From: a virus
Length of the DNA: 64,000 bases
Reading direction: 5' to 3' (one strand)
Virus record (IMG/VR): IMGVR_UViG_3300035660_000002
Coordinates: 1 to 64,000 of that record
A program made the translations under genes and the position numbers. This document shows, one piece after another, positions 7,578 to 45,209 of the stretch. The notes under the pieces were generated by a model. That model was not told where the DNA came from and did not search any database. It saw only the letters and a program-made list of their open reading frames with translations. Positions within the stretch are counted from its first letter, which is position 1, and each line of letters opens with the position of its first letter.

Positions 7578-7611
7578 AAACTGGGGCGGGCGTTTTTACC
7601 CGCCCCAGTTT
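7578..7611 (-). terminator. Rho-independent terminator after the major capsid gene
   Basis: AACTGGGGCGGG-loop-CCCGCCCCAGTT stem followed by TTCT on the coding strand. Confidence 0.75.
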
Positions 7612-7642: not shown

Positions 7643-9181
7643 TTAGTAATTAGAGATGTCCCCGTAGCAGAACATACCGGGGTTGATAACCTTTATTGCC
7701 GCCTGTGAGAGGAAGCCGCGCTGAGTGGTCAGATCAGCGAGCGTCACAGGATCCGTTGCATACAGCGGAACGTAGGGCGCGAATATGATACCTGCGAACA
7801 GGTAGTTATCGCCCCTGAACAGCTCAACGTACTCATCCGCCAGATAGAACGGATTACAGATGATCAGCCTGTTGCCCAAGGTGCCATGAACGTATGGGCC
7901 TGCTGGAGGCTTGGTTCCAATACCTGCGGCCGGTTTGTACTCCGGTAGCTGCTCGATCAAGCTGCAGACATTGATGCCGCCAACTGCTACGTTCGCGATT
8001 GCACGCAGGGTCTTTGCGAATATGTTCGCCGATCCTTTGCTCATGTACCTCTTTAACTCATGGATCCTCCAGATCCACTCCTGTCCGGCGCCAACCGTAC
8101 AGTTAAAGGTACCAGGGCCTGTAGCACTGCCAGCCCCACGTGATGTCGTCTTGATCTGCGACAGCACCGTCTGGTCGATCGCGAACCTGATCTCCTGCGT
8201 TGCGAACTTCATGCCCTCATCCGCTAACACCATGCCGTGAATCTTCTGCAGGTTGATAGCTGCAAACACGGTATAGTTCAGCTTCAGCGGGAACACCCGG
8301 GCATCGACGTTTTCAGACACGACCTCAAGATCCAGGCCGCCGATCCTGTCTGCGTAACCCGCGCAGCCAGCGTCGCACCTCTCTACATCATACCTGTAAT
8401 TAACCGTTGACGTTGTAGCCGCGTCAATGGTTCCACCGCCGCCAGCATCAAGCACGATGACGCCTGATCCCAGTGTGTAAGTGCCGACAACACCCGACCA
8501 AGCAGTATCAAATGGTGTGGTGACGGTATAATACGCCTGCAGTGTCAGCGAAGTGGTACTGCGGAACTGAACCACTCTTGTGCTGCCGCCTTTGGTGACT
8601 GTGAGACCATTCACCGTGACCGAGAGATCAATCAACGGGAAGAACCTACACGCCGTCAACGTTCTGCCCTGCGCAGGTGAACCCGCAAGGTTTGCTTCGG
8701 CTATCACTTCGTCAGACGCATATGATCTTGCGTCCGCCGATGCCGCATGCCCGACCTTTGCCCCGATCAGCTGATCTGTTACTCCGACCGTACCCTTTGT
8801 GGTCGCGGCCTTTATGTTCATGAAGTATACCTGGGCCTGCGGTCTATCGATAGCCTGAACGATAGACACGTGATCGGCTACCAGGCTGGGCAACAGCGCA
8901 GGAATAGTCGGAAGCATCTGCCTCGCGAACGCGATTGCGTCCGAATAGGTAGCCTCTGACACCATCCCGCCCATCTTGTTCAACACATAGAAGTCGAACA
9001 AGTTATCGCAGCACTGTGCGATATTTGCTTTCTGATACTCCTGCAGATCCCTGCCCTGGCTCTTGAAGAACTTCTCAACGACAGCGATGTACGGCTGCCA
9101 ACGGGCCATCGCTTCCGTCTGCCTCTTCATGAGCTCAGATCTGCGGGCTTCCGCGAGCTTTCTGAAATCAACTTGTGGCAT
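7643..9181 (-). CDS. gp23: Major capsid protein, T4 gp23-like
   Basis: VQAIDRPQAQVYFM and IIFAPYVPLY..TQRGFLS motifs of the gp23 family; propeptide ending VSE|A like the gp23 cleavage site; follows the protease. Confidence 0.92.
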   Translation of the reverse strand: MPQVDFRKLAEARRSELMKRQTEAMARWQPYIAVVEKFFKSQGRDLQEYQKANIAQCCDNLFDFYVLNKMGGMVSEATYSDAIAFARQMLPTIPALLPSLVADHVSIVQAIDRPQAQVYFMNIKAATTKGTVGVTDQLIGAKVGHAASADARSYASDEVIAEANLAGSPAQGRTLTACRFFPLIDLSVTVNGLTVTKGGSTRVVQFRSTTSLTLQAYYTVTTPFDTAWSGVVGTYTLGSGVIVLDAGGGGTIDAATTSTVNYRYDVERCDAGCAGYADRIGGLDLEVVSENVDARVFPLKLNYTVFAAINLQKIHGMVLADEGMKFATQEIRFAIDQTVLSQIKTTSRGAGSATGPGTFNCTVGAGQEWIWRIHELKRYMSKGSANIFAKTLRAIANVAVGGINVCSLIEQLPEYKPAAGIGTKPPAGPYVHGTLGNRLIICNPFYLADEYVELFRGDNYLFAGIIFAPYVPLYATDPVTLADLTTQRGFLSQAAIKVINPGMFCYGDISNY

Positions 9182-9224
9182 ATATTTACCTTTCGTTATG
9201 TCTCTGTTTTCGGTTTAGATTCTT

Positions 9225-9277
9225 TCAGCCAAAGTGTGGCCGCCATTTATATCTTTACTCAGCCGAAGTGCGGCTGA
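9225..9277 (-). promoter_or_regulatory. Two CACTT-loop hairpins flanking a TATAAAT late-promoter-like box in the capsid leader
   Basis: TCAGCCG-CACTT-CGGCTGA (9259-9277), TATAAAT (9245-9251), CGGCCA-CACTT-TGGCTG (9226-9242). Confidence 0.55.
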
Positions 9278-9286
9278 ATAGGATAT

Positions 9287-11890
9287 CTACCTTATTCCCG
9301 CTACCAGCCTTTCTGTCTCTGTTATCATCGGATCCTTATCCCCATCCGGTAGTTCAATATGTATGCTTCCCGGCGCTCCTCCACCCATCATGCCTTCCCT
9401 GAGAGCGAACCTTATCTTGCTGATCATGCTGTCGACCTCCTCCGCCGTCTTGCACTGCCTTAGCATGACCAGAGTGTTTTCAGGGATCTGGAGGCCCGAT
9501 TCACGCACCCTCATCTCCACAACAGTCCTCTGGAACATATCTGCTTCATGCTTGGCCTTTTGCTCAGCTATCATAGTCTCGTAATGCTTCTTGACGCTCT
9601 CGATCTTCTTCTCGTAGATGCCTTTGATCTCCTTAAGCAGATCCTCGCCGAACTTCTTTATCTGCGCCTTGGCCTGCTCAGTTATCTTGGTCATCTTCCC
9701 CTGAGTCTCTGCAGCAATCGACTCCGCTACTTCCATTGCCTTGTCGCGCTCTGCCTTGGAAATTGCTTCGTTCTTGCGCGCCTCTGCCAGGACTTTTATC
9801 ATGCTCTTGTATAGACTCATCGGGGTCTTTGCCTCGGAGAGAACCTTCTTGTCCTTGTCCGGCAGGAACATGTCATCTGACGCCTTCTGCATCTCTTTGT
9901 ATATGGTCTCGAAGTCTATTCCTGTGTTGTCCTCTTTTATAACGCCTTTGCCCATAGCCTTGCCCCCTTTGTCGGTTGATTCTTTTAGTTTATTGATTGC
10001 CTGCGCGAGCGTATCCTCCGCGAGCTTTCTTTCCACTGTATTTAAAGGAGTCTTGCGGTCTGGGGAGAACATCCTGCCGAACCTTACAGGGTTCTTCTCG
10101 GCTATCGCCTTGAACTCTGTCAGCTCCTCCGCACTCCAGGTTTCCCATGTGAACTTCAATCCTTCACGCACTGATTCCTTGGCTTTTTCACCCCTGCATG
10201 CCGGGCATAATGTGTATTCATTGTTGTCGACCGGCTTGCCACAATTACCACATGGCACCGGCTTTGTCCCGGGCTTCATTGCTACCCTGGGCTTGTCCGG
10301 GTTGTGGAACGCAATGGCTTCCTTGACTATCTTCAGATGCTGTATCTCCGCCTCAAAAGGTTCCTTGGCGCCATCCATCAGCACGTCCACGGTATATGTA
10401 TAATTCTCCTTATCGATCATCAGCTTCTTCGGAGACGATTTTACTGTGCCCTTCGCACCCTGCTTTGCGCCCACCTGTTGTGCGGCCAACGGATAGCTTT
10501 CAGCGCTCGCAGTGAACTCCACACGATCCCCTGCACCTATCCCACGCTCCCCTATATCCCCTTTCGCCTTATCCTGCGCTGCTCCTGCCCCTGTGGTGCC
10601 CTGTGGGATGCCGGAGGGCCCGCCGCCTGCGCCTGCTTCCATCTCTTTTATTTTTCTCTTCTTCCCGGCCGCCTTCTGCACCCGGGCCTCATTCACATCT
10701 GTGCCTGTGATCTCTTGCATGAGGGCCTGCTTCTCTGCAGGTGTCATGGTGTATCCGCTGTCCTCAAGCGCCCTCACCACATCGTTGAATATGTCATCTG
10801 AGTCAGCCTGCACATTTGGGAAGTCCTTTTCCCAGCTCTGGTATGCCTGCATGATCTGCTTGGCGTACTTGCCTTGGCCTTCCCCCATGATCCTTGGAGT
10901 ATCCTGCCTGAGCGCCTTCGCCTTGTCACCGCCCGCGCCTGTCCCTGATGGAACGGCAGGTTCCCCTATGTGGGCAGAGTCTCCGACTTCTTTTACCTGC
11001 CCTTCTTTCTTGAAATCATCCAGTGCCTGCCGGAGCGTTGCGTCAGAGAGCGTATGCCATGCTACCTTATTCACCTTTAGCACGTAGTCTTTGAATGCCT
11101 GCCCTGCGGCCGTTACTTCCGCATCAATATCTTCACGCACTTTGTTCTCGTTTGCGTGCGCACATCCCTTCATGCACTTCTTTTCCGACTTTTTGCACTG
11201 GCACGCCTTGTGCCCTTTGTCGTGCTGGATGCTCTCAAGTAAATCCTTCGCCTCTGACACATGCATTGACTCGAGCATAACAGTAGCATACTGCCGGTCG
11301 ATCTTCTCATTGTCAATCCCCGTCTTTATGATTCCCACAACATCCCTTTCTACCGATTCAGGGTATGCACCATATGTCGACGCATCCGCCGTAAAGTCAA
11401 CGGTCTTCAAAGAATATGATTCCGGAACAACATCGTAGAATGTTTCCTCGCCTTCCTGACATTCCTCCAGATCTCCCTCAGCCCTTGTTGACATGCCTAT
11501 GCCACATTCGGCCCTGAGAAGCGTATCCACAATCCTGCCGTATGGAGTATCAAGTATATCGGATCCACACTTCTCAATGTTACCTTCCTTAAATATTTCT
11601 GTCACTACGTGGGATATCTTTTCCGTGTTGGATTGACTGGTGTCTTTCGGATGCTCGGCGTGACCGAACAGGCTGCGGGTCCTGAGCTTCTCCCTTATAT
11701 CCGGATCCTGGTCTACCTTCTCCCACACTTCATTGCGGTACCTGCGCTTGTTCCGGTTCAGTTCTCCTATCTTGCATATGGGATATATAACGTGACAGAG
11801 CACTCCCTCTGCCAGCTTCTTACGATCCGATTCCGTTATCGTCGCTTTTCCTGTCATCCTCTCAATCAGTGTTTGCTTCTTTAATAGCAT
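9287..11890 (-). CDS. gp21: Prohead protease (T4 gp21-like) fused to a long modular/scaffold region
   Basis: NRNKRRY, LFGHAEHP, ILDTPYGRIV, GMSTRAEG and VDFTADAS protease motifs; then about 650 aa of small modules and a coiled-coil C-terminus. Confidence 0.9.
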   Translation of the reverse strand: MLLKKQTLIERMTGKATITESDRKKLAEGVLCHVIYPICKIGELNRNKRRYRNEVWEKVDQDPDIREKLRTRSLFGHAEHPKDTSQSNTEKISHVVTEIFKEGNIEKCGSDILDTPYGRIVDTLLRAECGIGMSTRAEGDLEECQEGEETFYDVVPESYSLKTVDFTADASTYGAYPESVERDVVGIIKTGIDNEKIDRQYATVMLESMHVSEAKDLLESIQHDKGHKACQCKKSEKKCMKGCAHANENKVREDIDAEVTAAGQAFKDYVLKVNKVAWHTLSDATLRQALDDFKKEGQVKEVGDSAHIGEPAVPSGTGAGGDKAKALRQDTPRIMGEGQGKYAKQIMQAYQSWEKDFPNVQADSDDIFNDVVRALEDSGYTMTPAEKQALMQEITGTDVNEARVQKAAGKKRKIKEMEAGAGGGPSGIPQGTTGAGAAQDKAKGDIGERGIGAGDRVEFTASAESYPLAAQQVGAKQGAKGTVKSSPKKLMIDKENYTYTVDVLMDGAKEPFEAEIQHLKIVKEAIAFHNPDKPRVAMKPGTKPVPCGNCGKPVDNNEYTLCPACRGEKAKESVREGLKFTWETWSAEELTEFKAIAEKNPVRFGRMFSPDRKTPLNTVERKLAEDTLAQAINKLKESTDKGGKAMGKGVIKEDNTGIDFETIYKEMQKASDDMFLPDKDKKVLSEAKTPMSLYKSMIKVLAEARKNEAISKAERDKAMEVAESIAAETQGKMTKITEQAKAQIKKFGEDLLKEIKGIYEKKIESVKKHYETMIAEQKAKHEADMFQRTVVEMRVRESGLQIPENTLVMLRQCKTAEEVDSMISKIRFALREGMMGGGAPGSIHIELPDGDKDPMITETERLVAGIR

Positions 11891-11901
11891 ATATATCTCC
11901 T

Positions 11902-12333
11902 CTAAATTAGCATTCTCATCTCTGTCCGGTATTCCTTGATTTTGGCAAGGTTTCCGTACAGCTTATTCCAGTCAGCGTCCTTAAGAATATCCCCTATGTA
12001 TTTACACTGCACTTCTTGGCAGTAGACACTTCGTATTGATCTCGGCAATCTGCATCCTCGCTCTGTGAGAAATCCTGTCGTATCAGACCACCCGTATATA
12101 TTTTTAAGACATGTCAGTTGTAATGCCGCCTCGGGAATCTTTGTTATCCCGTTATGGTCAGACTTCTTCTTCCCCGGAAGCTTTCCGTCAAAGTCGAAGT
12201 GTGCGTTCGATTCAGCGCATCCAGCGCAACAGTTCTCACAAGATCCTTTCTTGCCGCAGCACTGCTCGACCGCTCTTTTAAAGAACGCTTCTATCTCCGC
12301 TATGAGGTCATCTATCGTTTCGTTCTTTTCCAT
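11902..12333 (-). CDS. Cys-rich protein resembling the YkgJ-type Zn/Fe-S chelating family
   Basis: CCGKKGSCENCCAGC and GFLTERGCRLPRSIRSVYCQEVQC; start revised to ATG 12333. Confidence 0.5.
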   Translation of the reverse strand: MEKNETIDDLIAEIEAFFKRAVEQCCGKKGSCENCCAGCAESNAHFDFDGKLPGKKKSDHNGITKIPEAALQLTCLKNIYGWSDTTGFLTERGCRLPRSIRSVYCQEVQCKYIGDILKDADWNKLYGNLAKIKEYRTEMRMLI

Positions 12334-12342
12334 ATTAAATAA

Positions 12343-12434
12343 TGGGCGGCGTAAGCATTTCTGCCTGACGGCTATGTGTTGGTATATGCGCCTAGTGGGC
12401 GTCATAGATACCCTTTTTAGTGCATCGCCGCCCA
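12343..12434 (-). ncRNA. Structured intergenic cis-element (unknown class)
   Basis: 9-bp terminal stem TGGGCGGCG/CGCCGCCCA enclosing a CACTA-loop hairpin; occupies the whole intergenic gap. Confidence 0.45.
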
Positions 12435-12439
12435 ATCCT

Positions 12440-13738
12440 TTATCTAACCTTTCCGATCATTCTCTCGAAGCTGTCGTCAGCTTCTCTCTCAGTCACAGAT
12501 GGCACTCGCTCCTCTACCACACCCTCAGCCTCGGCCCCTTTACGGATAAGTTCCATCGGATCCAGATGTGTCTCTGTGTACACCCTGAGCCGACTGTTGT
12601 CTCCCTTCTCGATGAGAGTCGTAATCATTTTATCATCAACCTCACCTGCAGGATTCTCGGGGACTTTGCCTTCGCCGACCTTGCCTTCCTCATCCACTTG
12701 CTTCTGTGTATCAGGATGTACCATAATTCCAACTAATCCTTTGTCCTCCACGAATTTGAATATAACTGATCCATGAGAGAACTCATCCGTAAGAGCCTGT
12801 ACCTCTTTATGCAAAGCATTTTCAGTATCTACAGGCAAGTTACCGTGTTCGATAGCAACAACCCATCCATCTTTGTTTGCCACACTTACTTTATATTTTG
12901 CCGCTATCTTTGTTGCCGCATCCTGCACGGCCTGTGAGTAGTCCTGCAGTGTGCTCTTGGGTATACGTCCTTCACCAACCTTCTTTTTCCGCTCCTCAAG
13001 ATCTATTTCCATCACATCTATCTTGCTGGCCATAGACCCGAAAAGCCTCTTCACGAGAGCTTCGGCCTGCTTTAACCCCATCGTCGTAGTTTCGTACTCT
13101 ACGGTACCTGCGCCAACTCCCGCTCCCTCAAATCCGTGCTGCTGTAACACATCCATCTCATCGGCCATACCCCTCGGGCCGCTGATCATAATTATCTTGC
13201 CCTCTGTTACCTTGCGCTCACCGACCTTCTTTACATCGTCCTTATTGAGCGCAGGAGCCCCCTCTTTGCCCTTATTCTTGTCCTTATCGAGAGATCCCTC
13301 ACCCTGCTTAACAGGCGCCGTATTCGTGCCTGCGGGCTTGATATCATCCTTTGCCAGGTTCGGGTCACCTGCCTGCTGTCCTTTGGGCGCCGGGGCCGCG
13401 CCTTCCCCTCCTGCCACCTTCTTTGCGCCATCGAGGCTCGGGTCGCCTCCTGCCTTGTTCTTGTCACTGCCGAGTGATCCTGCGCCTTGAGCTACCGGCG
13501 CGGTGTTCGTTCCTGCCTTGGCCATATCCTCTTTGGAGAGGTTAGGGTCGCCTGCCTTGCCTTCGCCATCCTTGACGGCTCCCTTATCCTGATGTACCGG
13601 GGCATCGCCTGCCTTGACCTCGGTCTTCACTGCAGGGTCCTTGCCGGGCTTGCCATCGAGCTTCTCTTTGCCTTCGGCACCGGGCTTCTGATCGGTGGCC
13701 ACGACTTCCTCTTTTACCTTATCTATAGATTTTCCCAT
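12440..13738 (-). CDS. Prohead core/internal head protein with internal tandem repeat
   Basis: K/G/A/D/P-rich N-terminus with two about 60-aa repeats (AGDPNLxKxD..AGTNTAPVxQGxGSLxxDKNK); VxE|G putative protease sites; lies between portal and protease. Confidence 0.65.
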   Translation of the reverse strand: MGKSIDKVKEEVVATDQKPGAEGKEKLDGKPGKDPAVKTEVKAGDAPVHQDKGAVKDGEGKAGDPNLSKEDMAKAGTNTAPVAQGAGSLGSDKNKAGGDPSLDGAKKVAGGEGAAPAPKGQQAGDPNLAKDDIKPAGTNTAPVKQGEGSLDKDKNKGKEGAPALNKDDVKKVGERKVTEGKIIMISGPRGMADEMDVLQQHGFEGAGVGAGTVEYETTTMGLKQAEALVKRLFGSMASKIDVMEIDLEERKKKVGEGRIPKSTLQDYSQAVQDAATKIAAKYKVSVANKDGWVVAIEHGNLPVDTENALHKEVQALTDEFSHGSVIFKFVEDKGLVGIMVHPDTQKQVDEEGKVGEGKVPENPAGEVDDKMITTLIEKGDNSRLRVYTETHLDPMELIRKGAEAEGVVEERVPSVTEREADDSFERMIGKVR

Positions 13739-13752
13739 GACGATTTCTCCTT

Positions 13753-14049
13753 TTATTTTGAGTCCTTGACGGCCTCTATAAGTTTAAGCATCAGCTGTTC
13801 GCGCTCACCTTGCGCCTTCTTGTCCTCAGCCTGAAGCATTACATACTTGTCTATGGTTCCTGCGAGCTTTTCGACATTGCTCTGTGTCACATCTACTTTC
13901 TTGTCAACTGCGGCCACCTTACTCTCTACCGCCTCAACCTTCTTAGGCATACTGGCAAGCCCAATCGCGCCTGCTGATATCGCGGCTACGATTGCCAGCA
14001 GAGCTATCCACGACTTCATCTCAGTCACCAGTTCGCTTATCTTCTTCAT
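13753..14049 (-). CDS. Membrane-anchored coiled-coil protein
   Basis: One TM helix (WIALLAIVAAISAGAIGLAS) then heptad-like region. Confidence 0.6.
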   Translation of the reverse strand: MKKISELVTEMKSWIALLAIVAAISAGAIGLASMPKKVEAVESKVAAVDKKVDVTQSNVEKLAGTIDKYVMLQAEDKKAQGEREQLMLKLIEAVKDSK

Positions 14050-14050
14050 C

Positions 14051-14284
14051 CTATACTCCTATTGACCCTTTTCCCGGCTGCAGGATCCTGCTTTCCTCTT
14101 GCATCGTCAGCGTCTGTATCGCGCCTGCCAGCATCAATATCGCCTGCTTCTTATCGACCGTACATATCACGATAGGGTTCTTGGTGCCCTTCTGAACACC
14201 TATCGTTATGTACGCCGTGATTTCAAGACCGCTGCCATCGCCATTCGCTCCTACTATGCCCTTGTCCTGCCCTTCCGCCCCCAC
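14051..14284 (-). CDS. Hypothetical protein
   Basis: 77 aa ORF with GGAGG RBS. Confidence 0.55.
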   Translation of the reverse strand: MGAEGQDKGIVGANGDGSGLEITAYITIGVQKGTKNPIVICTVDKKQAILMLAGAIQTLTMQEESRILQPGKGSIGV

Positions 14285-14309
14285 GCTACACCTCCCGTTT
14301 ATATTATGT

Positions 14310-14852
14310 TTATGGCGCCCCCACCGATCCTACACCGCCTGCGCCTTCGTTGCCTTGCATCTTGGCAATACGCTGCTTGGCATCCTCTTCGGCTTCTGCT
14401 CGGTTCTCTTCCGGATATATTGCAGGATGTTCTTTCTCCCATCGCTGTATCGCAGCTGACAACGTATTGCCGCCACCTATGATGATCCTGCCTATACTTA
14501 TAGCGTCATGCGATCCGTTGCCAATAACATCCTCTATCGTAGAGTCCTTACTTTGTGGATCAAGCACCAACCAGAACGTACGTTTCGAGTTGAACGCCTC
14601 GCGCATCTTGAGCTTTCGGCTTGCTGTAACACCATCTATTCTATACGCCCATGTACCGTCAGGAAATGTTCTGTCCAAGGCATTCACTGCCTCATTGCCT
14701 CTTTCCTTATACTCCTCTACCGCTTCTTGAGGGATGGACTTCTCATAAAACTCCTGGCCTTCGTTGGTCAGTTCAAAGGATATCTTGCCGGCCTCGTTCA
14801 CACCTTCCCCTGCTGTCACTGCCTTCATCTCTTTATATAGTTTCTCGTCCAT
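14310..14852 (-). CDS. Probable internal head protein
   Basis: 180 aa, VNE|A and MRE|A putative protease sites, coupled to the upstream core protein. Confidence 0.6.
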   Translation of the reverse strand: MDEKLYKEMKAVTAGEGVNEAGKISFELTNEGQEFYEKSIPQEAVEEYKERGNEAVNALDRTFPDGTWAYRIDGVTASRKLKMREAFNSKRTFWLVLDPQSKDSTIEDVIGNGSHDAISIGRIIIGGGNTLSAAIQRWEKEHPAIYPEENRAEAEEDAKQRIAKMQGNEGAGGVGSVGAP

Positions 14853-17800
14853 TATCTCTTCTCCTTTAGCCCATGCTTCTCGAGCAGGTCTTTTATCATG
14901 CCGTCATCAACCTCACCTGCCGGATTGGCCGGCACCTTGCCCTCAGCGGCCGCATCCTTTATCACATAAAGATCATCGAGATTGGTGCCGACATGAATAG
15001 TAGGATTGGCCTCCCATGCCGCTTCGACTGAAGCAAATCCCAGCCTCTTGGCTATGCCGTATGACTCATCGTAATTCTTGAAATCTTCGATGTCATTGTC
15101 GTAGCTGGTCCTCAGCTTGCCCTTCCATTCCTTCAGCACGGCCTCATGCGCCTTCTTCTTTTTCTTCATGGCCTTGCCGATCGCATGCCACTTCTTTTCC
15201 TTTTTCGACATGCCCCCACATCCCTCATCGGCCTCTACGGCTTTCAGCTCCTCGGCTATGTCTGCTTCGGTAACGGTTTCCCGTACGCCCTTGCCGATCA
15301 GAGCATTGATCTGCGCAACCTCTGCCTTATCCAAATCGCGGACATGCTCAGCCTGATCATTGGCCCACCACAGTTCTACATCGGCATCGCCTGCCTTCTT
15401 TCCGGCATCCTCGAGCTTGTCGGCTACATCCTGCATACTTGTCAGGAGATCTGATTCTTTGCCGCCTATCTTCAGCACGAACGCAAAGTCCTCGTCATCA
15501 CCACCTTCGGAGACAGATTCCTTCTTGCCTTTCCGCCTTTCAATCTCGGCCTGCAGCTCCCTGATGAGCTCGTTGTCATGAAGCCCCATTGCTTCCAGCT
15601 CGGTCTGATGCTGAAGAGCCTTTTGTAGTTCTGAATCTTCGATCTGAAGAAGCTTCCACTTGCCCTCGCCTTCATCTATATTCGGTTGTTCCATCCTATG
15701 TTGGTACATTTTAATCTTTTTTGATAAACTATCCATTCTATCTTGAGCATCCTGCTGCATATCTTTATTTGATTCGGTACTTGCTCTTTTGTAATCCTCT
15801 TTAGCTTTTGAAAATTGTGTCTGTAATGATGCTACCGTCCCCCCAATTCTTTTTCGTTCGGATTCGCTCATGACTTCATTTTCGATCTCGCCCTTCTTCT
15901 CACGGCTGTCAACCTCTTTCGGGTTCTTTATCTCCTCTGCGCCTACCTGTTCGGCTTCGTGCTCTTTCTTCAGCTCCTCACACTTCTGGTCGTATTCGAT
16001 CTGATTGATCTTCTCCTCATGGAAGTCTTTCAGGAGCTTGGTGATCTCCCTCTGATACGCGTCCTCTTTCTCCTGACGAGTCTTGGCGATGTCCCCTACC
16101 GGTGTTTCCCTGCCCTTCGCATCTTCCTTGGAGGCGGGAGTTTCCTCTTTGGATTCCCTCATCACATCCAGCCAGAACCTGCCGAACGGAGTGTTGCGCA
16201 CCAAAAATTCATACTCTTTCCCGTCCTCAAGCTCCTTCATCCATGTAGTGACGACCTGCTGCTGATCCTTCATCGCCTTGCCCGTTGCCTTGACTATAGC
16301 AAATCCCTTCTTCTTGTCCTCATCAGAGAGCTCCGCCGCCTCATTGGCCTTGCCACACTTCGGGCAGTTACCCTTCTGACACGGAAAGCATTTACCACCC
16401 TCTTTGGCTTCCGCTGCCGATAGCTTTGCGCCACAACATTTGCACCACAACTTGGCTATCCCGGCCTCATCTACTTTGGATTCATTATACTTCTTCTCAC
16501 ATGCGGCGCACACACCACTCTTGTCCTCGCTGGGCTTACCGCAGTATCTGCACTTCACAATGTCCTTGCCTTCATTCCTGCTGACCAGCGCCAGATCTTT
16601 TATCTTCTCTTGCGTCTTTTCGTTCTGCCCCCAATCAACCTCTACCGTATCGTTGTCAATTATCTTGGTAATGTTGCCGTTGACTTTAGATGTGTCGCGC
16701 CGCTCAACACCATCCCCTACTTTGGGCTGTGGTATAGCTTCCTCTACCTTCGCCTCGCTGGCCTCAACGTCCTTCTCTTCCTCTTTTGTCGGCTCTGTCT
16801 CTGGTGCCTTGGGATCGCTTGCAAGTGCCTCTTTCCTGCGCTTCCATGCGTCCTTGAGCCTGGTCTCTTGCTTGTCGTCTATGTCACCCTTTGTGGCCGC
16901 TTTCTCGAGAGCGTCCATAACGGTCTCAAGGGCACTTGCCTCAGTCGCCTTATGTATCTTGCGGAGGAAGGACATCGCATGCTTGGTACGTTCTGCGGCC
17001 GCGACCTTATCTTTCTTGGTCTCTTTGGCCTCGTTTTTCGCCTTCTGCGCCGGATCGAACCCTATCACGAGACTCGCCTCTGTCGCTTTCTCGGTCATGA
17101 GAAGCTCTATGACCTGATCCAACGTTTCCTGATCGAGGTCGTCGAATGTGATCGTATCCTCTGCGTTATCCACGCTGACCACCTGTTGCTTCTGGTTATC
17201 GACGTAGTATTCTTTATCCGCGATCATGACCTTCGGCATCTCTTTGACCGGTGCGGCCGGCGCGGCTGCTGCTGGATCCTTCTCAAACATCTTCACGTCC
17301 TGCCCTGCTTCCTTTACACTTTCCATTCTCGGCGCCTCTGCCGCACCTGGTTCCCTTGCGGGTTCGCCTACTTCGCCTGTTTCCATCTCATGCTCCGGCG
17401 ATTGCCCTTCAGGCTCACCTGCCAGTTCCGGTGGTATCTCCTTCTTGCCCTCCACCTTGAAGAGACCTAAGTCCTCGAGGAGCTTAAAGCTTATGGAGTC
17501 GATCTGCATGTCCTGCACGATCTGATATATGAAGTCCGCGTCCGGTATGCCCTCGGTGTTCTCTACGTTCTTTACCTCTTCATCGGAGATGCCGTAGAGC
17601 TTTATCGACTTGATGCTTGTCGAAGCGCCTTCTGCCGGGCTTGGCCCTGCCTCTGCGCCTGCGGGGCCTGCCGTGCCTGTCTCGCCCTTGTCGATGATGG
17701 CGTAGTACAGTTCATCGCCTGACGATCCGAAGTATACCTTTCCCTGTATCTCCTTCTCTTCCTCTTTGTCCGAGATCTCATAGAGTTTCTTGATCACGTT

Positions 17801-17980
17801 CTCTATGTTCGGGTCCTCAAGGTTCGGCACCACTCCTTCGGCGACCTTGCGGGCCTCCTCCAGGAGATGCAGTTCGTTTGACTGTTTCACAGCTGGCGGC
17901 CGGTTTGTTGATTCATTCAGAGCTTCGCTCTGCTTTAGTATACCCAGATTCTTTTCAATGTCTCCGAATAGCAATGGCAT
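14852..17980 (-). CDS. Large acidic modular prohead core/cargo polyprotein
   Basis: About 1040 aa (start revised to ATG 17980); E/K-rich; many xxE|A/S/G sites separating SH3-like, Cys-finger and helical modules. Confidence 0.7.
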   Translation of the reverse strand: MPLLFGDIEKNLGILKQSEALNESTNRPPAVKQSNELHLLEEARKVAEGVVPNLEDPNIENVIKKLYEISDKEEEKEIQGKVYFGSSGDELYYAIIDKGETGTAGPAGAEAGPSPAEGASTSIKSIKLYGISDEEVKNVENTEGIPDADFIYQIVQDMQIDSISFKLLEDLGLFKVEGKKEIPPELAGEPEGQSPEHEMETGEVGEPAREPGAAEAPRMESVKEAGQDVKMFEKDPAAAAPAAPVKEMPKVMIADKEYYVDNQKQQVVSVDNAEDTITFDDLDQETLDQVIELLMTEKATEASLVIGFDPAQKAKNEAKETKKDKVAAAERTKHAMSFLRKIHKATEASALETVMDALEKAATKGDIDDKQETRLKDAWKRRKEALASDPKAPETEPTKEEEKDVEASEAKVEEAIPQPKVGDGVERRDTSKVNGNITKIIDNDTVEVDWGQNEKTQEKIKDLALVSRNEGKDIVKCRYCGKPSEDKSGVCAACEKKYNESKVDEAGIAKLWCKCCGAKLSAAEAKEGGKCFPCQKGNCPKCGKANEAAELSDEDKKKGFAIVKATGKAMKDQQQVVTTWMKELEDGKEYEFLVRNTPFGRFWLDVMRESKEETPASKEDAKGRETPVGDIAKTRQEKEDAYQREITKLLKDFHEEKINQIEYDQKCEELKKEHEAEQVGAEEIKNPKEVDSREKKGEIENEVMSESERKRIGGTVASLQTQFSKAKEDYKRASTESNKDMQQDAQDRMDSLSKKIKMYQHRMEQPNIDEGEGKWKLLQIEDSELQKALQHQTELEAMGLHDNELIRELQAEIERRKGKKESVSEGGDDEDFAFVLKIGGKESDLLTSMQDVADKLEDAGKKAGDADVELWWANDQAEHVRDLDKAEVAQINALIGKGVRETVTEADIAEELKAVEADEGCGGMSKKEKKWHAIGKAMKKKKKAHEAVLKEWKGKLRTSYDNDIEDFKNYDESYGIAKRLGFASVEAAWEANPTIHVGTNLDDLYVIKDAAAEGKVPANPAGEVDDGMIKDLLEKHGLKEKR

Positions 17981-17993
17981 AATGTTCCTCCTG

Positions 17994-18347
17994 TTATCGA
18001 ATACCTTGTAATAGTTTCTCGAGAGTCCCTTTCGCCTCGTTTTCCGCATCCTTCTTAAAGTCATCTATTACTTTCGCTGTCTCCTCGCATATGCCTATAG
18101 ATGGCGCCGCAGCGGACTTGGCAAATGCCTCTGTCAGCTCGTCCGCATTCTCCTTTATCTTCTCACTTATGACTTTCCCTGTTTCAACCGGCGGCGCTCC
18201 TTGCAAGTCCTCTACCGCCATGTCCACGAATGTGGCGATGGATGGACTCTCTTCCCGGGCTTTCTCATGCAGTGCCCTCATGTCCGGGGCTTTACTCCCC
18301 AGGAGATCCCCTAGCGCTGCCGCTACGAATTCATTTGTCGCTGGCAT
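17994..18347 (-). CDS. Hypothetical head-region protein
   Basis: Start revised to ATG 18347; acidic helical. Confidence 0.6.
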   Translation of the reverse strand: MPATNEFVAAALGDLLGSKAPDMRALHEKAREESPSIATFVDMAVEDLQGAPPVETGKVISEKIKENADELTEAFAKSAAAPSIGICEETAKVIDDFKKDAENEAKGTLEKLLQGIR

Positions 18348-18348
18348 A

Positions 18349-18765
18349 TTAAAACCCCTTATCTTTCGGTTGCTTCCACCAATCATCACCCTTCGACCAT
18401 GGCCCGTCTCTCTCTATGTCCATGCCCTCATCTATCATGCCATGCTCTCTGGCGTATGCTTCCATCCTCTCTCCGAGCTCTACGAAGTCCTTCGCCTTAA
18501 AGAACCTGAACGCCTTCAGGAACATCCAAAATCCATGTACAGCCCCAAGCTCATATCCCGGGTACATGCTTTCGTTGGTATTCCTGTCTTTCTTAGCCGC
18601 ATCGAGGAACTCATCGATGCCCCAGTTCCTGCGGCTTTCCATCCACTTCGGTAGGTCGTTCACGTCAAAAGTATCTTTGTTAACGTAGAGATATGCCATC
18701 CCACCACCGCACCCTACGCCGGTCGCATACCATCTCGCGCTTATAACAACCATTGGCCCACTCAT
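18349..18765 (-). CDS. Hypothetical protein
   Basis: ATGA overlap with upstream gene at 18762-18765. Confidence 0.55.
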   Translation of the reverse strand: MSGPMVVISARWYATGVGCGGGMAYLYVNKDTFDVNDLPKWMESRRNWGIDEFLDAAKKDRNTNESMYPGYELGAVHGFWMFLKAFRFFKAKDFVELGERMEAYAREHGMIDEGMDIERDGPWSKGDDWWKQPKDKGF

Positions 18766-19157
18766 ATCATTTGCCTGTTTATGCTCGCCAGCACATCCTC
18801 GAGGAGGCACTTGTATTCCTTGTGCCCTTTCTCAAGCTCGATGCATAGATGCGTGCCGAGACTAAACAGTCCCTTCAACCCTTTGTACAAGTTATGGCAC
18901 TTGCCCTCTGTCAGCTTCTTCAGCGTGTCATGCACTGACTTGCCCTTCAGATGCTCGAAGAGTTTATTGAGGAGAGCATCCTTGCCTTCCAATGTTTCCA
19001 GTAGCGTCATCGCCTCGCTATTCTTCTTGTCGAGTATCAGGAACTCTGCCTCCCGGACAATGCCAAACTTATCCGTGTCTTTATACATAGAATACATCTC
19101 ATGGTATTTCTCCATGAGATTATCGCTTGGTATGGTCTTTATCTCACTTGTTTCCAT
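18762..19157 (-). CDS. Hypothetical head-region protein
   Basis: Follows portal; start revised to ATG 19157. Confidence 0.6.
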   Translation of the reverse strand: METSEIKTIPSDNLMEKYHEMYSMYKDTDKFGIVREAEFLILDKKNSEAMTLLETLEGKDALLNKLFEHLKGKSVHDTLKKLTEGKCHNLYKGLKGLFSLGTHLCIELEKGHKEYKCLLEDVLASINRQMI

Positions 19158-21651
19158 TGCCTGTCCCATTCCTCTTTTCACTCTTGCTGAAGTCAAAGTT
19201 TATCTTCCTCGGCTGCCATATCGCAGACTCTTTCTTGAGCGTCATGTCAGCCTCATCGATCCTGAATATCGAGGCTCGCTTCGAGTCTGTGATCCTATGC
19301 TTCAACGATAGCTCCTCAGCAGTTAGCTCGCTATCGTTCTTTGATATGAGTATCTTAAGAGATTCATCCAATTCTTTCCTGATGTTTTCCTCGGCCGTCA
19401 CATCCGGCAGGTATGACATGCAATCAGACGACAGCATAAACTCCCTTATCTTCTGTACGTTCTTTACATCCTTCTTTGCATCGCCTATCGTACCCAGACC
19501 TGCCACGCCTGCGGCCGCGAGCTTTGTCCTGAGTTTCTGGAAGTCGAGGTCGTTCAGCTTGAGGATGCGCCTGTTGCAGTAGTCAAGGAGTTCCATCTTG
19601 TCGATGTCCGGCACTGCCTTCGTGTAGACATCCATCAGTTTCTCCACGACATCCATACCGCTTGATAGTGCATTCTTCAGCTCCTCTTCCTCGGCACTTG
19701 ATATGTCGGCAAAGTTAACCTCAAACCTGGATGGATCCGGGTTCAGCTTCCGATAGGCCAGATGTATCTGACAAAGCCTCTTTATGCCCTGTCTTGTTCC
19801 TGATTGCAGCCTCTCTGCGCTCTTCGCAAAGTTTATGCTTATACGGTTGGCGGCACCTTCCCCAATCGAACCGGGCAGATCGTCAGTTATTCCCAGCATA
19901 CTCTTGCTCGTTCTCAGAGCACCCAATAGCTGATTCGTCAATAGATCTATGTCCACGATCGCCTTTATGTCCGGCTCTCCCCCCATCTTCTCCATCATCA
20001 CGTCCACATCTTCCGACACTGGCACGAATAGATCTTCTGCCTGCGCCAGTATCGGTTGAAACTTGTCCCTCCACTCTTTCTGTGAGTCGCTTGTGTTCAA
20101 TCCTGCGTTCAGATTACGCTTCAGATATTCAGCATATTCCATTACGAGTTCCGCTGCCGATTCCATGTTTCCGCCTGCCACCTTGATCTTAAATAGGTAC
20201 CAGAGCACACCTCTTGTCATACGCGACATCAGGAGGCTATCCTCTGCCAGCTTCAGCCTTTTGTAGACCGGTATGGCCGGCACGAGAAGACTTACCCCGT
20301 ATTTCGTGGTGATCCTAAACTTCCTGTCCCCCATCCTCTCACGTTCCAGGGAGAACATCTTGCCTGGTTCACCGAATATACCCAGCGCCGTGTTCAGCAC
20401 CTTCTTCGTGACTCCGAAGATCCGAAAGTGCACGTACTTCCAGCTCGCTTCGAGGTCTGCTGTGTACTGCGACCTTTCCACGTATAGTCCGGTCCTGACA
20501 AACCCTTCCAACCTGCCGTTTATGTCTATGCGCTCCATGTCAGCCGGATGTATGTTGTCATCTGTGTATGCCACACCTATGCCGTCCCTGCCTATTGCCT
20601 CTATAAAAAAATCGCCGAACATACCTAACTGTCCGGCCCAATCCCTTGCCTTCTCTTCTATCGCTATCTCATCCAGAAACTGATTTAGCGTATTCTCAAG
20701 CTTCTTATCCTCTGATGATACCCATATGCTCCTATTAGTTACATGACTTGTCCCCAGTATCGCGTCTGTATATAGATCCAACGCCCCTGAGACGTATGGA
20801 TGACTTGCGCAGAGTTCGCAATTATGTACAAACACCCCCGCCGATAGTGCAAAGTTATGGAATGGTTCTACCTGAAGATCGTACACATCTTCTACTGCAC
20901 CCGTCATCTCTACTCGCACTACTTTATGATTCTTGTATCCGGCTACGTGCTTCGTGTCGTATATATTCTCTGCTTCTTCCCTGCTTATATTTCTGTGCTT
21001 CATCAAAGTTGTAGTAGCGTACTGTCGAACTACTTCGACAGGCCTTTTTCTGCCTGTCAGTTTTTCACTAGCCGTTTTCAGTCCCGCACTTGCTCCCGCC
21101 TTTTTTCTGTACAGAGGCATGAGGCTGTCCCTCGCCTGTAAATCCTTTGCTGCCTTGTAACTACCATCCCTCATCATAAACGGATGTTCTGGTGTGCATC
21201 TGATTTCCTCTCCATTATCCAACATCACCTTCATAATCTGTCTTTGCTCTGGCTGTTTCCACACCTTCTCTATCTTGCATCTTCGCACCTTCTGCCCGGC
21301 CATGTCTATTGAGTAGACATAATTCACCTTGCCTGCCGCATGCTCTTCCATTAGTGTCTTGAAGTCTACATCTCTGCCATCAAGCAACGCTATCTTAGTA
21401 TCACCTGTGAAGCATTCTCTGTAGAACGTTCTGCGATAATAGCTTGTGGCGAGGGCCTCTTGCAAGAGCTTTGCCAGCCTTGCCTCTGTAAATACTGATC
21501 CTGTCCTTAGGAGTCTCCTGTGATATTCTATCTTCTTTGCGGGATCTGCGAGGTCTTGAGCTGTCTGTGCGGGAATTTCGAGGGGAGTTCTGCCTGTGCG
21601 TCTTTTAAGGTATCTTGATATAAAACCGGGTTGTTTCTGCGGCTCCGCCAT
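19144..21651 (-). CDS. gp20: Portal protein, T4 gp20-like, with mini-intein
   Basis: HPYVSGALDLYTD, YVHFR, YGVSLL, LKLAEDSLLMSRMTR and IVDIDLLTNQL..ALR motifs; lies between terminase and protease. Confidence 0.88.
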   Translation of the reverse strand: MAEPQKQPGFISRYLKRRTGRTPLEIPAQTAQDLADPAKKIEYHRRLLRTGSVFTEARLAKLLQEALATSYYRRTFYRECFTGDTKIALLDGRDVDFKTLMEEHAAGKVNYVYSIDMAGQKVRRCKIEKVWKQPEQRQIMKVMLDNGEEIRCTPEHPFMMRDGSYKAAKDLQARDSLMPLYRKKAGASAGLKTASEKLTGRKRPVEVVRQYATTTLMKHRNISREEAENIYDTKHVAGYKNHKVVRVEMTGAVEDVYDLQVEPFHNFALSAGVFVHNCELCASHPYVSGALDLYTDAILGTSHVTNRSIWVSSEDKKLENTLNQFLDEIAIEEKARDWAGQLGMFGDFFIEAIGRDGIGVAYTDDNIHPADMERIDINGRLEGFVRTGLYVERSQYTADLEASWKYVHFRIFGVTKKVLNTALGIFGEPGKMFSLERERMGDRKFRITTKYGVSLLVPAIPVYKRLKLAEDSLLMSRMTRGVLWYLFKIKVAGGNMESAAELVMEYAEYLKRNLNAGLNTSDSQKEWRDKFQPILAQAEDLFVPVSEDVDVMMEKMGGEPDIKAIVDIDLLTNQLLGALRTSKSMLGITDDLPGSIGEGAANRISINFAKSAERLQSGTRQGIKRLCQIHLAYRKLNPDPSRFEVNFADISSAEEEELKNALSSGMDVVEKLMDVYTKAVPDIDKMELLDYCNRRILKLNDLDFQKLRTKLAAAGVAGLGTIGDAKKDVKNVQKIREFMLSSDCMSYLPDVTAEENIRKELDESLKILISKNDSELTAEELSLKHRITDSKRASIFRIDEADMTLKKESAIWQPRKINFDFSKSEKRNGTGNGNK
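20821..21414 (-). mobile_element. Mini-intein (198 aa) in portal, no endonuclease domain
   Basis: CFTGDTK...CTPEHPF...VYDLQVEPFHNFALSAGVFVHN|C; short basic NUMOD-like linker only. Confidence 0.92.
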
Positions 21652-21658
21652 TCTTTTC

Positions 21659-21677
21659 CTCACAGAAGTGCTGTAAG
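21659..21677 (-). promoter_or_regulatory. CACTT-loop hairpin sequestering the portal Shine-Dalgarno
   Basis: CTTACAG-CACTT-CTGTGAG (7 bp with one G-U); its 3' arm contains GAG of GAGG, 7 nt before ATG 21651. Confidence 0.55.
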
Positions 21678-21815
21678 TTCAAAAATTGGTGCTTTAAATG
21701 CCCTTTTAATTTCCAACCGCTTCGACTTCCCGCACCAACGTCTTAGTTTACTATATAAATATATGTATATCCCTTAAAAGGACATATCTATTTTCACTTT
21801 ATGTATCCGATTCGG

Positions 21816-21839
21816 TTAATTAGCTTCATTGCTAATTAA
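21816..21839. terminator. AT-rich inverted repeat after the sigma factor gene
   Basis: TTAATTAGC-6 nt-GCTAATTAA; no clear U tract. Confidence 0.35.
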
Positions 21840-21854
21840 GCGCTTTGACAGGTC

Positions 21855-27332: not shown

Positions 27333-27656
27333 TTATAGCTCTTCGTCTCCTTCGACACTCTTGGTACCTTCGGAGCCTGCAGCATCTGTGCTCTCAGCGT
27401 CCTTCGCTGACGGTATTCCGCTCCTGTCACGCTTCTTTGCGTCCGATGCGGGCTCTTTCATCACGACTGTCACTTCAGTCGCCTGAGGGCCTCTCTCACC
27501 CTGGGCAGGAGTGAACTCCACCCGTTGCTCGTCTCTCAGCTTTTTATAACCTTCGGCCTTGATGGCAGAGAAATGCACGAAGTAATCTTTGCCGTCCTCC
27601 CCGGTTATAAAACCATACCCCTTCTTCTCATTAAACCACTTTACTTTTCCTTTCAC
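27333..27656 (-). CDS. cspA: Cold-shock protein with C-terminal extension
   Basis: [29 protein letters not shown]1/RNP2 motifs. Confidence 0.93.
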
Positions 27657-45197: not shown

Positions 45198-45209
45198 CGG
45201 TCGTTCTGA

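What the first reader, a model, noticed from the sequence alone, without database searches (positions are those of the whole stretch)
9225..21677. A family of CAC(T)(T/A)-pentaloop hairpins restricted to head-gene leaders
Seen on the coding strand: CTTACAG-CACTT-CTGTGAG (21677-21659, burying the portal SD); TATG-A-CGCC-CACTA-GGCG-CATA (12406-12385); TCAGCCG-CACTT-CGGCTGA (9277-9259); and CGGCCA-CACTT-TGGCTG (9242-9226). The last two bracket TATAAAT upstream of the capsid gene. Stems differ in sequence but keep pairing (G-C to A-T swap between the two capsid copies) while the loop is conserved, which is the signature of a protein-recognised hairpin. By-eye checks of other CACTT/CACTA occurrences inside genes found no comparable stems. 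Known analogies: coat/RegA-type translational operators, and N4 virion-RNAP promoters, which are template-strand hairpins (the template loop here reads AAGTG/TAGTG). Inference: an undescribed late regulon tuning portal:capsid stoichiometry; candidate readers include the phage cold-shock protein or sigma factor.
Basis: partly seen in the sequence, partly recalled or inferred. Interest (0 to 1): 0.8.

Follow-up and report, generated by a model that had tools for sequence, protein, structure and literature searches.

The report
Conserved CACUU hairpins marking head genes
Small RNA hairpins with a fixed five-base loop (CACUU) sit just before the major capsid gene of this uncultivated 133-kb phage and of about 40 relatives, where they are usually written inside the end of the scaffold gene, so they are very likely an undescribed control signal for making phage heads, whose reader is still unknown.

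Summary
All four hairpins are at the stated coordinates on the coding (-) strand. Three are strong: two before the capsid gene and one over the portal ribosome-binding site. The fourth (12385-12406) is weak.

The decisive evidence comes from relatives. In 39 phages aligned by protein alone, 32 carry a hairpin of at least 5 bp with a CACTT-type loop at one exact column. 28 carry a second hairpin about 80 nt further on. Both lie inside the 3' end of the protease-scaffold gene, 120-250 nt before the capsid gene. Stems covary, synonymous sites are frozen, and G·U pairs outnumber A·C by 32 to 3, which indicates sense-strand RNA.

This phage and L001 are the only two that lack the in-gene hairpins. 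They are also the only two with a long spacer that carries the same hairpins.

Extra copies cover the ribosome-binding site of the portal gene (here and in a 40%-identical relative) or of the gene after the capsid gene in three relatives.

No Rfam family matches. The N4-promoter analogy and the cold-shock and sigma readers are not supported.

My best reading is a protein-read RNA operator that sets head-protein synthesis. This scan has noted similar fixed-pentaloop hairpins, with other loop sequences, in other phages.

The parts
9256..9280 (-). Capsid-side hairpin A. It has a 10-bp stem (core 9259-9277) with one U·G pair and the loop CACUU. It starts 7 nt after the stop codon of the protease-scaffold gene.
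   Evidence: Sequence. Present in the MFE and centroid folds. R1 22.4 bits. R2, built from relatives only, 15.1 bits, E 0.07, second-best hit in the window.
9226..9242 (-). Capsid-side hairpin B. It has a 6-bp stem with one G·U pair and the loop CACUU. It lies 34 nt after hairpin A and 44 nt before the capsid ATG.
   Evidence: R1 19.1 bits. R2 gives only 10.8 bits, E 1.9. Membership rests on the identical loop and on its position next to hairpin A.
21659..21677 (-). Portal-leader hairpin. It has a 7-bp stem with one U·G pair and the loop CACUU. The 3' arm overlaps the GAGGA ribosome-binding site of the portal gene.
   Evidence: R2 20.6 bits, E 0.001, the best hit in the window. Relative G007 has an analogous hairpin directly before its portal ATG.
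12385..12406 (-). Doubtful member. The stem is 4 bp, a bulged A, then 4 bp, with the loop CACUA. The lower stem pairs an in-frame ATG (12405-12403) that has an AAGGG 5 nt upstream. The hairpin sits inside an ~85-nt structure closed by GGGCGGCG/CGCCGCCC.
   Evidence: Sequence. Fold z-score -3.76. Found by neither R1 nor R2. No relatives were available for this leader.
9182..9286 (-). The 105-nt spacer between the protease-scaffold gene and the capsid gene. It holds hairpins A and B and an A+U-rich linker containing TATAAAT.
   Evidence: Relatives with in-gene hairpins have spacers of about 0-80 nt, mostly under 40.
9287..11890 (-). Prohead protease-scaffold fusion gene (867 aa). Its C-terminal domain is the one that carries the two hairpins in relatives.
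   Evidence: PHROG head maturation protease. C-terminal homology to the upstream genes of relatives.
9373..9485 (-). The positions inside the scaffold gene that are homologous to hairpins hp1 and hp2 of relatives. This phage has no hairpin here.
   Evidence: Codon alignments.
7643..9181 (-). Major capsid protein gene (gp23-like, PF07068).
7578..7611 (-). Intrinsic terminator directly after the capsid gene, with a 14-bp G+C-rich stem and a T run. It would set the 3' end of the capsid message.
19144..21651 (-). Portal protein gene.
   Evidence: PHROG portal.

Best explanation
The CACUU-loop hairpins are cis-acting elements of the sense-strand late mRNA. One trans-acting factor, most likely a protein and plausibly a dimer or a head-assembly protein, recognises them by their loop.

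The core element is a pair of hairpins between the body of the protease-scaffold gene and the capsid gene. In most members of the clade it is superimposed on the last ~80 codons of the scaffold gene. In this phage it has moved into a 105-nt spacer. Additional single copies bury the ribosome-binding site or start codon of low-copy head genes: portal here and in G007, and the gene after the capsid gene in L045, L028 and L010.

Proposed action: binding stabilises the hairpins. At the single copies this shuts translation initiation. At the scaffold/capsid junction it controls how many ribosomes or transcripts pass from scaffold into capsid. Together these would set the ratios of head proteins after transcription.

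What is shown: the hairpins exist, they are conserved, the stems covary, selection acts on the nucleic acid, the strand is the sense strand, and the positions are as described. What is inferred: that a protein reads them, which protein it is, and the direction of the effect.
For: (1) An independent search supports the location. Model R1, run over 36 loci not used to build it (307,885 bp, both strands), gave 40 hits at E<=10. About 35 of them lie on the coding strand 100-300 nt before the capsid start, which is under 2% of the search space.

(2) In a protein-anchored codon alignment of 39 scaffold C-termini, a hairpin of at least 5 bp with a 5-nt loop starts at nucleotide column 133 in 32 of 39 sequences (27 CACTT, 3 CACTA). 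One starts at column 211 or 216 in 28 of 39. The mean per column is 0.34 and no other column exceeds 3.

(3) Selection acts on nucleotides, not on the protein. The Ala codon is GCA in 24 of 26 cases (background 27%) and the Leu codon is CTT in 31 of 34 (background 23%). The same loop is encoded in different reading registers (xCA CTT for hp1, CAC Txx or xCA CTT for hp2). In hp1 the inner five pairs are paired in all 30 sequences and 6 of 7 pairs show changes on both sides, many through amino-acid replacements.

(4) The pattern is complementary. The window phage and L001 are the only two sequences without in-gene hairpins. They are also the only two whose 105-nt and 83-nt spacers carry the same hairpins.

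(5) Strand: in 66 hairpins, G·U pairs number 32 and A·C pairs 3.

(6) Copies over ribosome-binding sites occur at the portal gene here and in G007 (portal proteins 40% identical), and at the post-capsid genes of L045, L028 and L010. Among 43 start-proximal hairpins with a Shine-Dalgarno-like arm in 1.17 Mb, CACTT is the commonest loop.

(7) The element is specific. In six large relatives only the capsid-side pair stands out on the coding strand, and tail sheath and tail tube genes have none.
Against: - No reader was identified. The roughly 35 proteins shared with distant relatives are structural or replicative and none matched an RNA-binding family.
- Hairpins inside a translated reading frame are melted by ribosomes, which is awkward for a simple repressor.
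- The capsid-side hairpins do not touch the capsid ribosome-binding site.
- The portal copy is present in only 2 of 9 portals examined.
- No expression data exist.
- Hairpin B and the 12406 site score poorly with the model built from relatives only.
Confidence: 0.55

Rival explanations
1. The hairpins are mRNA processing and stability punctuation. They mark where the long late transcript is cut by a phage or host endoribonuclease that reads the loop. Alternatively they cap the new ends: hairpin 1 would protect the 3' end of the scaffold message and hairpin 2 the 5' end of a stable capsid message that runs to the strong terminator. This would give far more capsid than protease-scaffold protein.
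For: The pair always lies between the scaffold body and the capsid gene at a variable distance from the capsid start. In the window, hairpin A starts right after the scaffold stop codon, an A+U-rich single-stranded linker follows, and then hairpin B. A strong terminator closes the capsid message. This model tolerates hairpins inside a reading frame better than a repressor model does. The portal and post-capsid copies are also intercistronic.
Against: No nuclease candidate was found in the shared gene set. End-protecting hairpins would not need a conserved loop. The copies that bury a ribosome-binding site point to translation. No RNA ends are available.
Confidence: 0.25
2. The hairpins are transcription-elongation control elements of the boxB/N or ANTAR kind. 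A factor bound to the nascent twin hairpins would modify RNA polymerase or prevent a terminator from forming, letting transcription continue through the head operon.
For: The architecture, two small hairpins with conserved loop residues and free stems, is that of ANTAR targets (PMC3369931). The pentaloop-on-short-stem form recalls boxB (own knowledge).
Against: No terminator overlaps or follows the hairpins; the nearest is 1.6 kb downstream, after the capsid gene. The loop is pyrimidine-rich and has 5 nt, so it is neither GNRA-like nor a hexaloop. No ANTAR domain was found, although the control for that search was silent. The copies on ribosome-binding sites are not explained.
Confidence: 0.07
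3. The element acts at the DNA level. Possibilities are a hairpin promoter of the N4 type, a single-strand initiation or primase site on the lagging-strand template, or a cruciform bound by a DNA protein.
For: All genes run one way, so the sense strand would be the lagging-strand template and transiently single-stranded (inference).
Against: G·U against A·C asymmetry (32:3) excludes the template strand and a symmetrical cruciform. About 10% wobble pairs is typical of RNA helices. The loop has 5 nt, not the 3 nt of N4 promoters. No single-subunit RNA polymerase was found, although the control was silent. Placement on ribosome-binding sites has no DNA-level rationale.
Confidence: 0.05
4. There is no function. 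The hairpins would be chance palindromes or a by-product of the conserved peptide motifs (A-L-L-E and A-L-H-S) of the scaffold C-terminal domain.
For: The protein motifs are conserved. Within this one genome the count is small, 3 of 133 pentaloop hairpins.
Against: Synonymous positions are frozen. Amino-acid changes are compensatory only at the nucleotide level. The loop appears in different reading registers. The hairpins are also present in non-coding spacers and leaders in exactly those phages that lack them in the gene.
Confidence: 0.02

Closest known systems
Coat-protein translational operators of RNA phages (MS2/R17, PP7, Qbeta) (own knowledge)
   Same: A small hairpin is recognised through fixed loop bases on a stem of free sequence. 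It covers the ribosome-binding site or start of the controlled gene, as the portal and post-capsid copies do here. It is read by a capsid protein dimer so that virion-protein ratios are set after transcription.
boxB hairpins of lambda/P22 nut sites read by N protein (own knowledge)
   Same: A short stem with a pentaloop of fixed sequence, a stem sequence free to vary, a few copies per genome, and a small phage protein as reader.
   Different: The boxB loop is purine-rich and GNRA-like. It follows boxA behind early promoters and acts on transcription elongation. Here the loop is CACUU, the sites are in late head genes, and no terminator relation is seen.
ANTAR-target dual-hairpin RNAs (Ramesh et al. 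2012, PMC3369931)
   Same: [quoted passage not shown]
   Different: Here there are pentaloops 34-83 nt apart, no terminator overlap, and no ANTAR domain was detected.
Post-transcriptional autoregulation of the P22 scaffolding gene (Casjens & Adams 1985; Wyckoff & Casjens 1985; listed as refs 52-53 of PMC5529062)
   Same: Head-assembly-coupled, post-transcriptional control of scaffold synthesis by unassembled scaffold protein. The element here lies in or just after a scaffold gene.
   Different: To my knowledge the RNA target in P22 was never defined as a hairpin family.
Fixed-pentaloop hairpins in head-gene leaders noted earlier by this scan in other phages (e1-5894391 GNGAY, e1-5325178 GGGAU, e1-5985813 GNAAC and others; AI notes, unchecked by me)
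   Same: Usually two hairpins per message with a constant five-base loop and covarying stems, before scaffold, capsid, portal or terminase genes, and absent from Rfam.
   Different: Those have other loop sequences and other phage lineages, and all are in untranslated leaders. Here the pair is embedded in coding sequence and has moved to a spacer in two lineages.

Membership tests
Any Rfam family | A match to a curated covariance model | tested here: not met
   At gathering threshold only two tRNAs were found in the window. No match at E<=5 in 9000-22000.
N4-type virion-RNAP hairpin promoters | The hairpin forms in the template strand | tested here: not met
   Wobble pairs are on the sense strand: G·U 32 against A·C 3 in 66 hairpins.
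N4-type virion-RNAP hairpin promoters | A 5-7 bp stem with a 3-nt loop (own knowledge of the family) | tested here: not met
   The loop has 5 nt, CACTT/C/A, in all members.
N4-type virion-RNAP hairpin promoters | The phage encodes a single-subunit RNA polymerase | tested here: inconclusive
   PF00940 gave no hit in the complete genome, but the control genomes were silent too.
ANTAR-target dual hairpin | Two hairpins with hexaloops carrying conserved residues (PMC3369931) | tested here: not met
   There are two hairpins, but with pentaloops of sequence CACUU.
ANTAR-target dual hairpin | The second hairpin is mutually exclusive with an intrinsic terminator | tested here: not met
   No terminator-like hairpin with a T run at or after hairpin B or hp2. 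The nearest is after the capsid gene at 7578-7611.
ANTAR-target dual hairpin | An ANTAR-domain protein is present | tested here: inconclusive
   PF03861 gave no hit in the genome, but the control was silent. A host protein cannot be examined.
boxB/N antitermination site | A GNRA-like purine-rich pentaloop (GAAAA/GACAA) | tested here: not met
   The loop is CACUU, CACUC or CACUA, with rare CAAUC and CAAUU.
boxB/N antitermination site | An N-like arginine-rich protein and an adjacent boxA | not tested
   No search was made. The sites are in late genes, not behind early promoters.
Intrinsic (Rho-independent) terminator | A G+C-rich stem followed directly by a U run | tested here: not met
   A, B and the portal hairpin are followed by GTAAAGA, AAAGAAT and GAAAAGA. 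True terminators in this genome look different.
Coat-protein-type translational operator | The hairpin includes the ribosome-binding site or start codon of the regulated gene | tested here: inconclusive
   Met for the portal gene (window and G007), for L045, L028 and L010, and possibly for 12405. Not met for the capsid-side pair.
Coat-protein-type translational operator | Specific binding by a virion protein | not testable with these tools
   This needs EMSA or reporter assays.
T4-type late promoter (TATAAATA) | The motif recurs upstream of late genes | tested here: not met
   TATAAAT occurs 8 times on the coding strand and 7 of these are inside genes.

The most novel reading that the evidence does not exclude
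The hairpins are the RNA arm of an assembly-coupled feedback loop. An unassembled head protein, most attractively the scaffold's own C-terminal capsid-binding domain or free capsid protein, would bind the CACUU loops. In that case the very RNA that encodes the capsid-binding domain would double as its operator. Together with the other fixed-pentaloop hairpins this scan has noted in unrelated phages, this would define a general, undescribed class of lineage-specific 'head-gene tags' that set virion stoichiometry in tailed phages.
Probability: 0.2. Interest if true: 0.85.

Novelty: new variant of a known kind. Interest (0 to 1): 0.66.

Why it matters
How large tailed phages obtain the correct ratios of capsid, scaffold, protease and portal proteins from co-transcribed late genes is largely unknown outside a few model phages.

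This work identifies a sharply defined RNA signal conserved across a clade whose capsid proteins have diverged to about 35% identity. The signal is strong enough to freeze synonymous codons and to force compensatory amino-acid changes in a structural protein. There is also a natural relocation experiment: the signal moved from inside the gene to a spacer in two phages.

The signal is a ready target for binding and reporter assays. It shows that regulatory RNA can be hidden inside phage structural genes, where leader-only searches miss it. It also adds an independent case to the fixed-pentaloop hairpins that this scan keeps finding at head genes in unrelated phages.

Tried and rejected
The closest relatives known only from protein clusters (P0002-P0007) could therefore not be fetched.
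- **RNA data.** No RNA holder is listed for the stretch.
- **Read laying**. Contigs from runs of three other sediment-metagenome studies include pieces identical to the window, one of them across capsid hairpins A and B, and no listed difference fell on a hairpin. There is no microdiversity to exploit.
- **Rfam.** Nothing found.
- **Promoter motifs.** TATAAAT as a late promoter was rejected. A shared TTTAT..TAGTAAA-like motif seen by eye in some portal leaders does not recur in this genome.
- **Motif avoidance.** CACTT is not avoided on the coding strand. It is at Markov expectation in 7 genomes, and the strand asymmetry is compositional.
- **Reader by phylogenetic profile.** The cold-shock protein (27333-27656) and the sigma-like protein (21855-22484) are not detectably conserved in six large relatives. 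Three small proteins (25521-26015, and genome 127188-128189 and 132512-132940) are present in the five hairpin-bearing genomes and absent from hairpin-less G013. However, G013 is only 73% complete and these proteins have no annotation.
- **Scaffold C-terminal domain.** The predicted structure is three helices with mean pLDDT 68 and has no significant PDB fold match.
- **Cultured relatives.** No match to the hairpin-bearing scaffold domain in the phage collection. Maribacter phage Colly, the closest cultured capsid relative examined, lacks both the domain and the hairpins.
- **The genome search RNA search over 34 records**. Its first-look filter missed many sites that cmsearch finds, so I did not use it as evidence of absence.
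- **PF03861 and PF00940 searches.** No hits, but the controls were silent.
- **Literature searches.** They returned nothing on such an element.
Full report
**What is in the window.**
The window is the first 64 kb of a complete 133,462-bp phage genome with direct terminal repeats. GC content is 47% and nearly all genes lie on the - strand. The head module, read on the - strand, is:
- a large terminase-like gene (22481-25534);
- a small sigma-like protein with weak region 2 and region 4 matches (21855-22484);
- the portal gene (19144-21651);
- several unknown genes;
- a prohead protease-scaffold fusion (9287-11890);
- a gp23-like major capsid protein (7643-9181, PF07068);
- a strong intrinsic terminator (7578-7611).

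**Within-genome test.**
- Plain scans and a covariance model of the hairpin (R1) find only three strong stem-CACTT-stem sites on either strand of the whole genome: 9258-9278, 9224-9244 and 21658-21678. The next hit is 6 bits weaker.
- All three lie in the ~8% of the genome that is non-coding.
- Among all hairpins of at least 6 bp with a pentaloop on the coding strand, CACTT is the commonest loop, but with only 3 of 133. This genome alone would therefore not carry the case.
- The fourth site (12385-12406, loop CACTA, 4 bp + bulge + 4 bp) is found by neither model.
- That fourth site does lie in a markedly stable ~85-nt leader structure (z -3.76). Its lower stem pairs an in-frame ATG (12405-12403) that has a better Shine-Dalgarno sequence than the ATG at 12336 (sequence). 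I treat it as a possible, unconfirmed member.

**Relatives.**
The capsid protein has 44 relatives in metagenomes at 25-79% identity. I fetched DNA for 15 metagenome loci and 41 IMG/VR loci.

Upstream of the capsid gene, almost all of them carry one or two hairpins with the loop CACTT, CACTC or CACTA (rarely CAATC or CAATT). The stems have entirely different sequences.

As an independent test I ran R1 over 36 loci that were not used to build it (307,885 bp, both strands). It gave 40 hits at E<=10. About 35 of these lie on the coding strand 100-300 nt before the capsid start, which is under 2% of the space searched. Conversely, a model built only from relatives (R2) ranks the window's portal hairpin first (E 0.001) and capsid hairpin A second (E 0.07) in the 64-kb window.

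**The hairpins are inside a gene in relatives.**
In the relatives the hairpins lie within the last ~80 codons of the protease-scaffold gene. This is a conserved C-terminal domain with the pattern ...SGLxL....ALLExCxSxEEVD......R..LRE..LHS....

I aligned 39 such C-termini by protein only and back-translated the alignment:
- A hairpin of at least 5 bp with a 5-nt loop starts at nucleotide column 133 (hp1) in 32 of 39 sequences.
- One starts at column 211 or 216 (hp2, two registers 5 nt apart) in 28 of 39.
- The mean over all 393 columns is 0.34, and no other column exceeds 3.

**Selection is on the nucleic acid.**
- The Ala codon in the hp1 loop is GCA in 24 of 26 cases (background 27%). The following Leu codon is CTT in 31 of 34 (background 23%).
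- The loop is encoded as xCA CTT in hp1. In hp2 it is encoded either as CAC Txx or again as xCA CTT, so one nucleotide motif is kept in different reading registers.
- On a gap-free 136-column alignment of 30 sequences, the five inner pairs of hp1 are paired in every sequence. Six of its seven pairs show changes on both sides (hp2).
- Many of these changes replace amino acids. For example, V...R, L...K and Q...E combinations make sense only as base pairs.

**A natural relocation experiment.**
The window phage and L001 are the only two of the 39 with no hairpin at either in-gene position, although they keep the protein domain. They are also the only two whose spacer before the capsid gene carries hairpins of the same kind: 105 nt with two hairpins here, and 83 nt with one in L001.

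L009, whose capsid protein is closer to the window's (79% over the matched part) than L001's (68%), has the in-gene arrangement. The two relocations are therefore probably independent, although this is an inference from identities only. The element is kept whether or not it is translated.

**Strand and molecule.**
In 66 hairpins, the first five pairs comprise 290 Watson-Crick pairs, 32 G·U pairs and 3 A·C pairs. The structure therefore forms in the sense strand. About 10% wobble is typical of RNA helices. This argues against template-strand (N4-like) hairpins and against symmetrical cruciforms.

**Other copies.**
- Whole-record scans of six large relatives show that, on the coding strand, essentially only the capsid-side pair stands out.
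- G007 also has GAGCTA-CACTT-TAGCTT directly abutting the ATG of its portal gene (40% identical to the window's portal), with GGAG in the 5' arm. This mirrors the window's portal hairpin, whose 3' arm runs into GAGGA.
- Seven other portals have no such hairpin.
- In L045, L028 and L010, a CACTT or CACTA hairpin whose 3' arm contains the Shine-Dalgarno sequence precedes the gene that follows the capsid gene and its terminator. In L045 that gene is the homologue of window 6850-7560.
- In 1.17 Mb of pooled sequence, CACTT is the commonest of all pentaloops (57 of 9,658). It is also the commonest among the 43 start-proximal hairpins with a Shine-Dalgarno-like arm.
- Tail sheath, tail tube and baseplate genes carry none. 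The family is specific to head genes.

**What it is not.**
- It matches no Rfam family.
- It is not a terminator: no U run follows, and the genome's real terminators look different.
- TATAAAT between hairpins A and B is not a recurrent promoter.
- CACTT is not an avoided word.
- It is not an ANTAR or boxB site by loop length or sequence, or by terminator context.
- It is not an N4-type promoter.
- The cold-shock protein (27333-27656, PF00313) and the sigma-like protein are not detectably conserved in six relatives, five of which keep the hairpins. They are poor candidates for a universal reader.

**Mechanism.**
A constant loop on free stems, often in pairs, is the hallmark of a structure-specific reader. 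Known examples are coat-protein operators, boxB/N and ANTAR targets (PMC3369931).

I commit to a protein-read RNA operator that sets head-protein synthesis after transcription (confidence 0.55):
- At the single copies, the hairpin, and more so a bound protein, hides the ribosome-binding site of low-copy head genes.
- At the scaffold/capsid junction, the pair gates the passage from scaffold to capsid.

The main rival (0.25) is processing and stability punctuation that yields a stable capsid message bounded by hairpin 2 and the terminator. It copes better with hairpins inside a translated frame but does not explain the conserved loop as naturally.

The shared gene set is structural and replicative only. 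The scaffold C-terminal domain folds as three helices with no informative fold match.

**Context and limits.**
- This scan's earlier notes describe fixed-pentaloop, covarying hairpins, often two per leader, before scaffold, capsid, portal or terminase genes in unrelated phages, with other loop sequences. I did not check those notes. They suggest that this is one lineage's version of a wider, unpublished phenomenon.
- No cultured member of this clade was found.
- All functional statements beyond existence, conservation, strand and position are inference.

Noticed in passing
L008/L018 (7126-10696), L009 (604-3481), L010 (414-2912), L013, L037/L038: The capsid genes of several relatives are split into two or three collinear pieces by insertions of roughly 0.3-1.2 kb. 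These could be introns, inteins or homing-endonuclease cassettes. The window's capsid gene is uninterrupted.
   Followed up: no
window 12350-12432 (-): An ~85-nt leader structure is closed by an 8-9 bp G+C helix (GGGCGGCG/CGCCGCCC). Its fold z-score is -3.76. It contains the weak CACUA hairpin and a second, unpaired CACUA. The gene start may be the ATG at 12405 rather than the one at 12336.
   Followed up: partly
window 733-1158 (-): The protein matches Pfam Tad3, the type I Thoeris inhibitor (E 1.3e-33). This is an anti-defence gene next to the head/tail region, and it is also present in four of six relatives.
   Followed up: no
window 27333-27656 (-): A phage-encoded cold-shock-domain protein (PF00313, 90 bits). 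It is not conserved in the six large relatives examined.
   Followed up: partly
window 38769-41054 (-): A family A DNA polymerase carries an N-terminal uracil-DNA-glycosylase-superfamily domain fused to the exonuclease and polymerase domains.
   Followed up: no
window 45121-45295 (-): Rfam finds two adjacent tRNA-like genes. ARAGORN reports only one and cannot name its anticodon.
   Followed up: no
L016 11497-11525 (+): The terminator-like 12-bp hairpin right after the capsid gene of this relative has the loop CAATC. This is the same variant loop seen in some in-gene hairpins.
   Followed up: no
G007 and G029 (whole records): CACTG is strongly under-represented on the coding strand: 7 observed against 32 expected, and 4 against 16. 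This may be avoidance of a restriction site.
   Followed up: no
window 9000-21900: Contigs from runs of three other sediment-metagenome studies include pieces identical or nearly identical to this stretch, so the phage or a near-identical strain recurs in such samples.
   Followed up: partly
G007 1839-1859 (+): An 8-bp CACTT hairpin lies in the spacer after the UvsX-like gene and before a homologue of genome 64183-64857. It is not a head gene. It could be chance or a further copy.
   Followed up: partly
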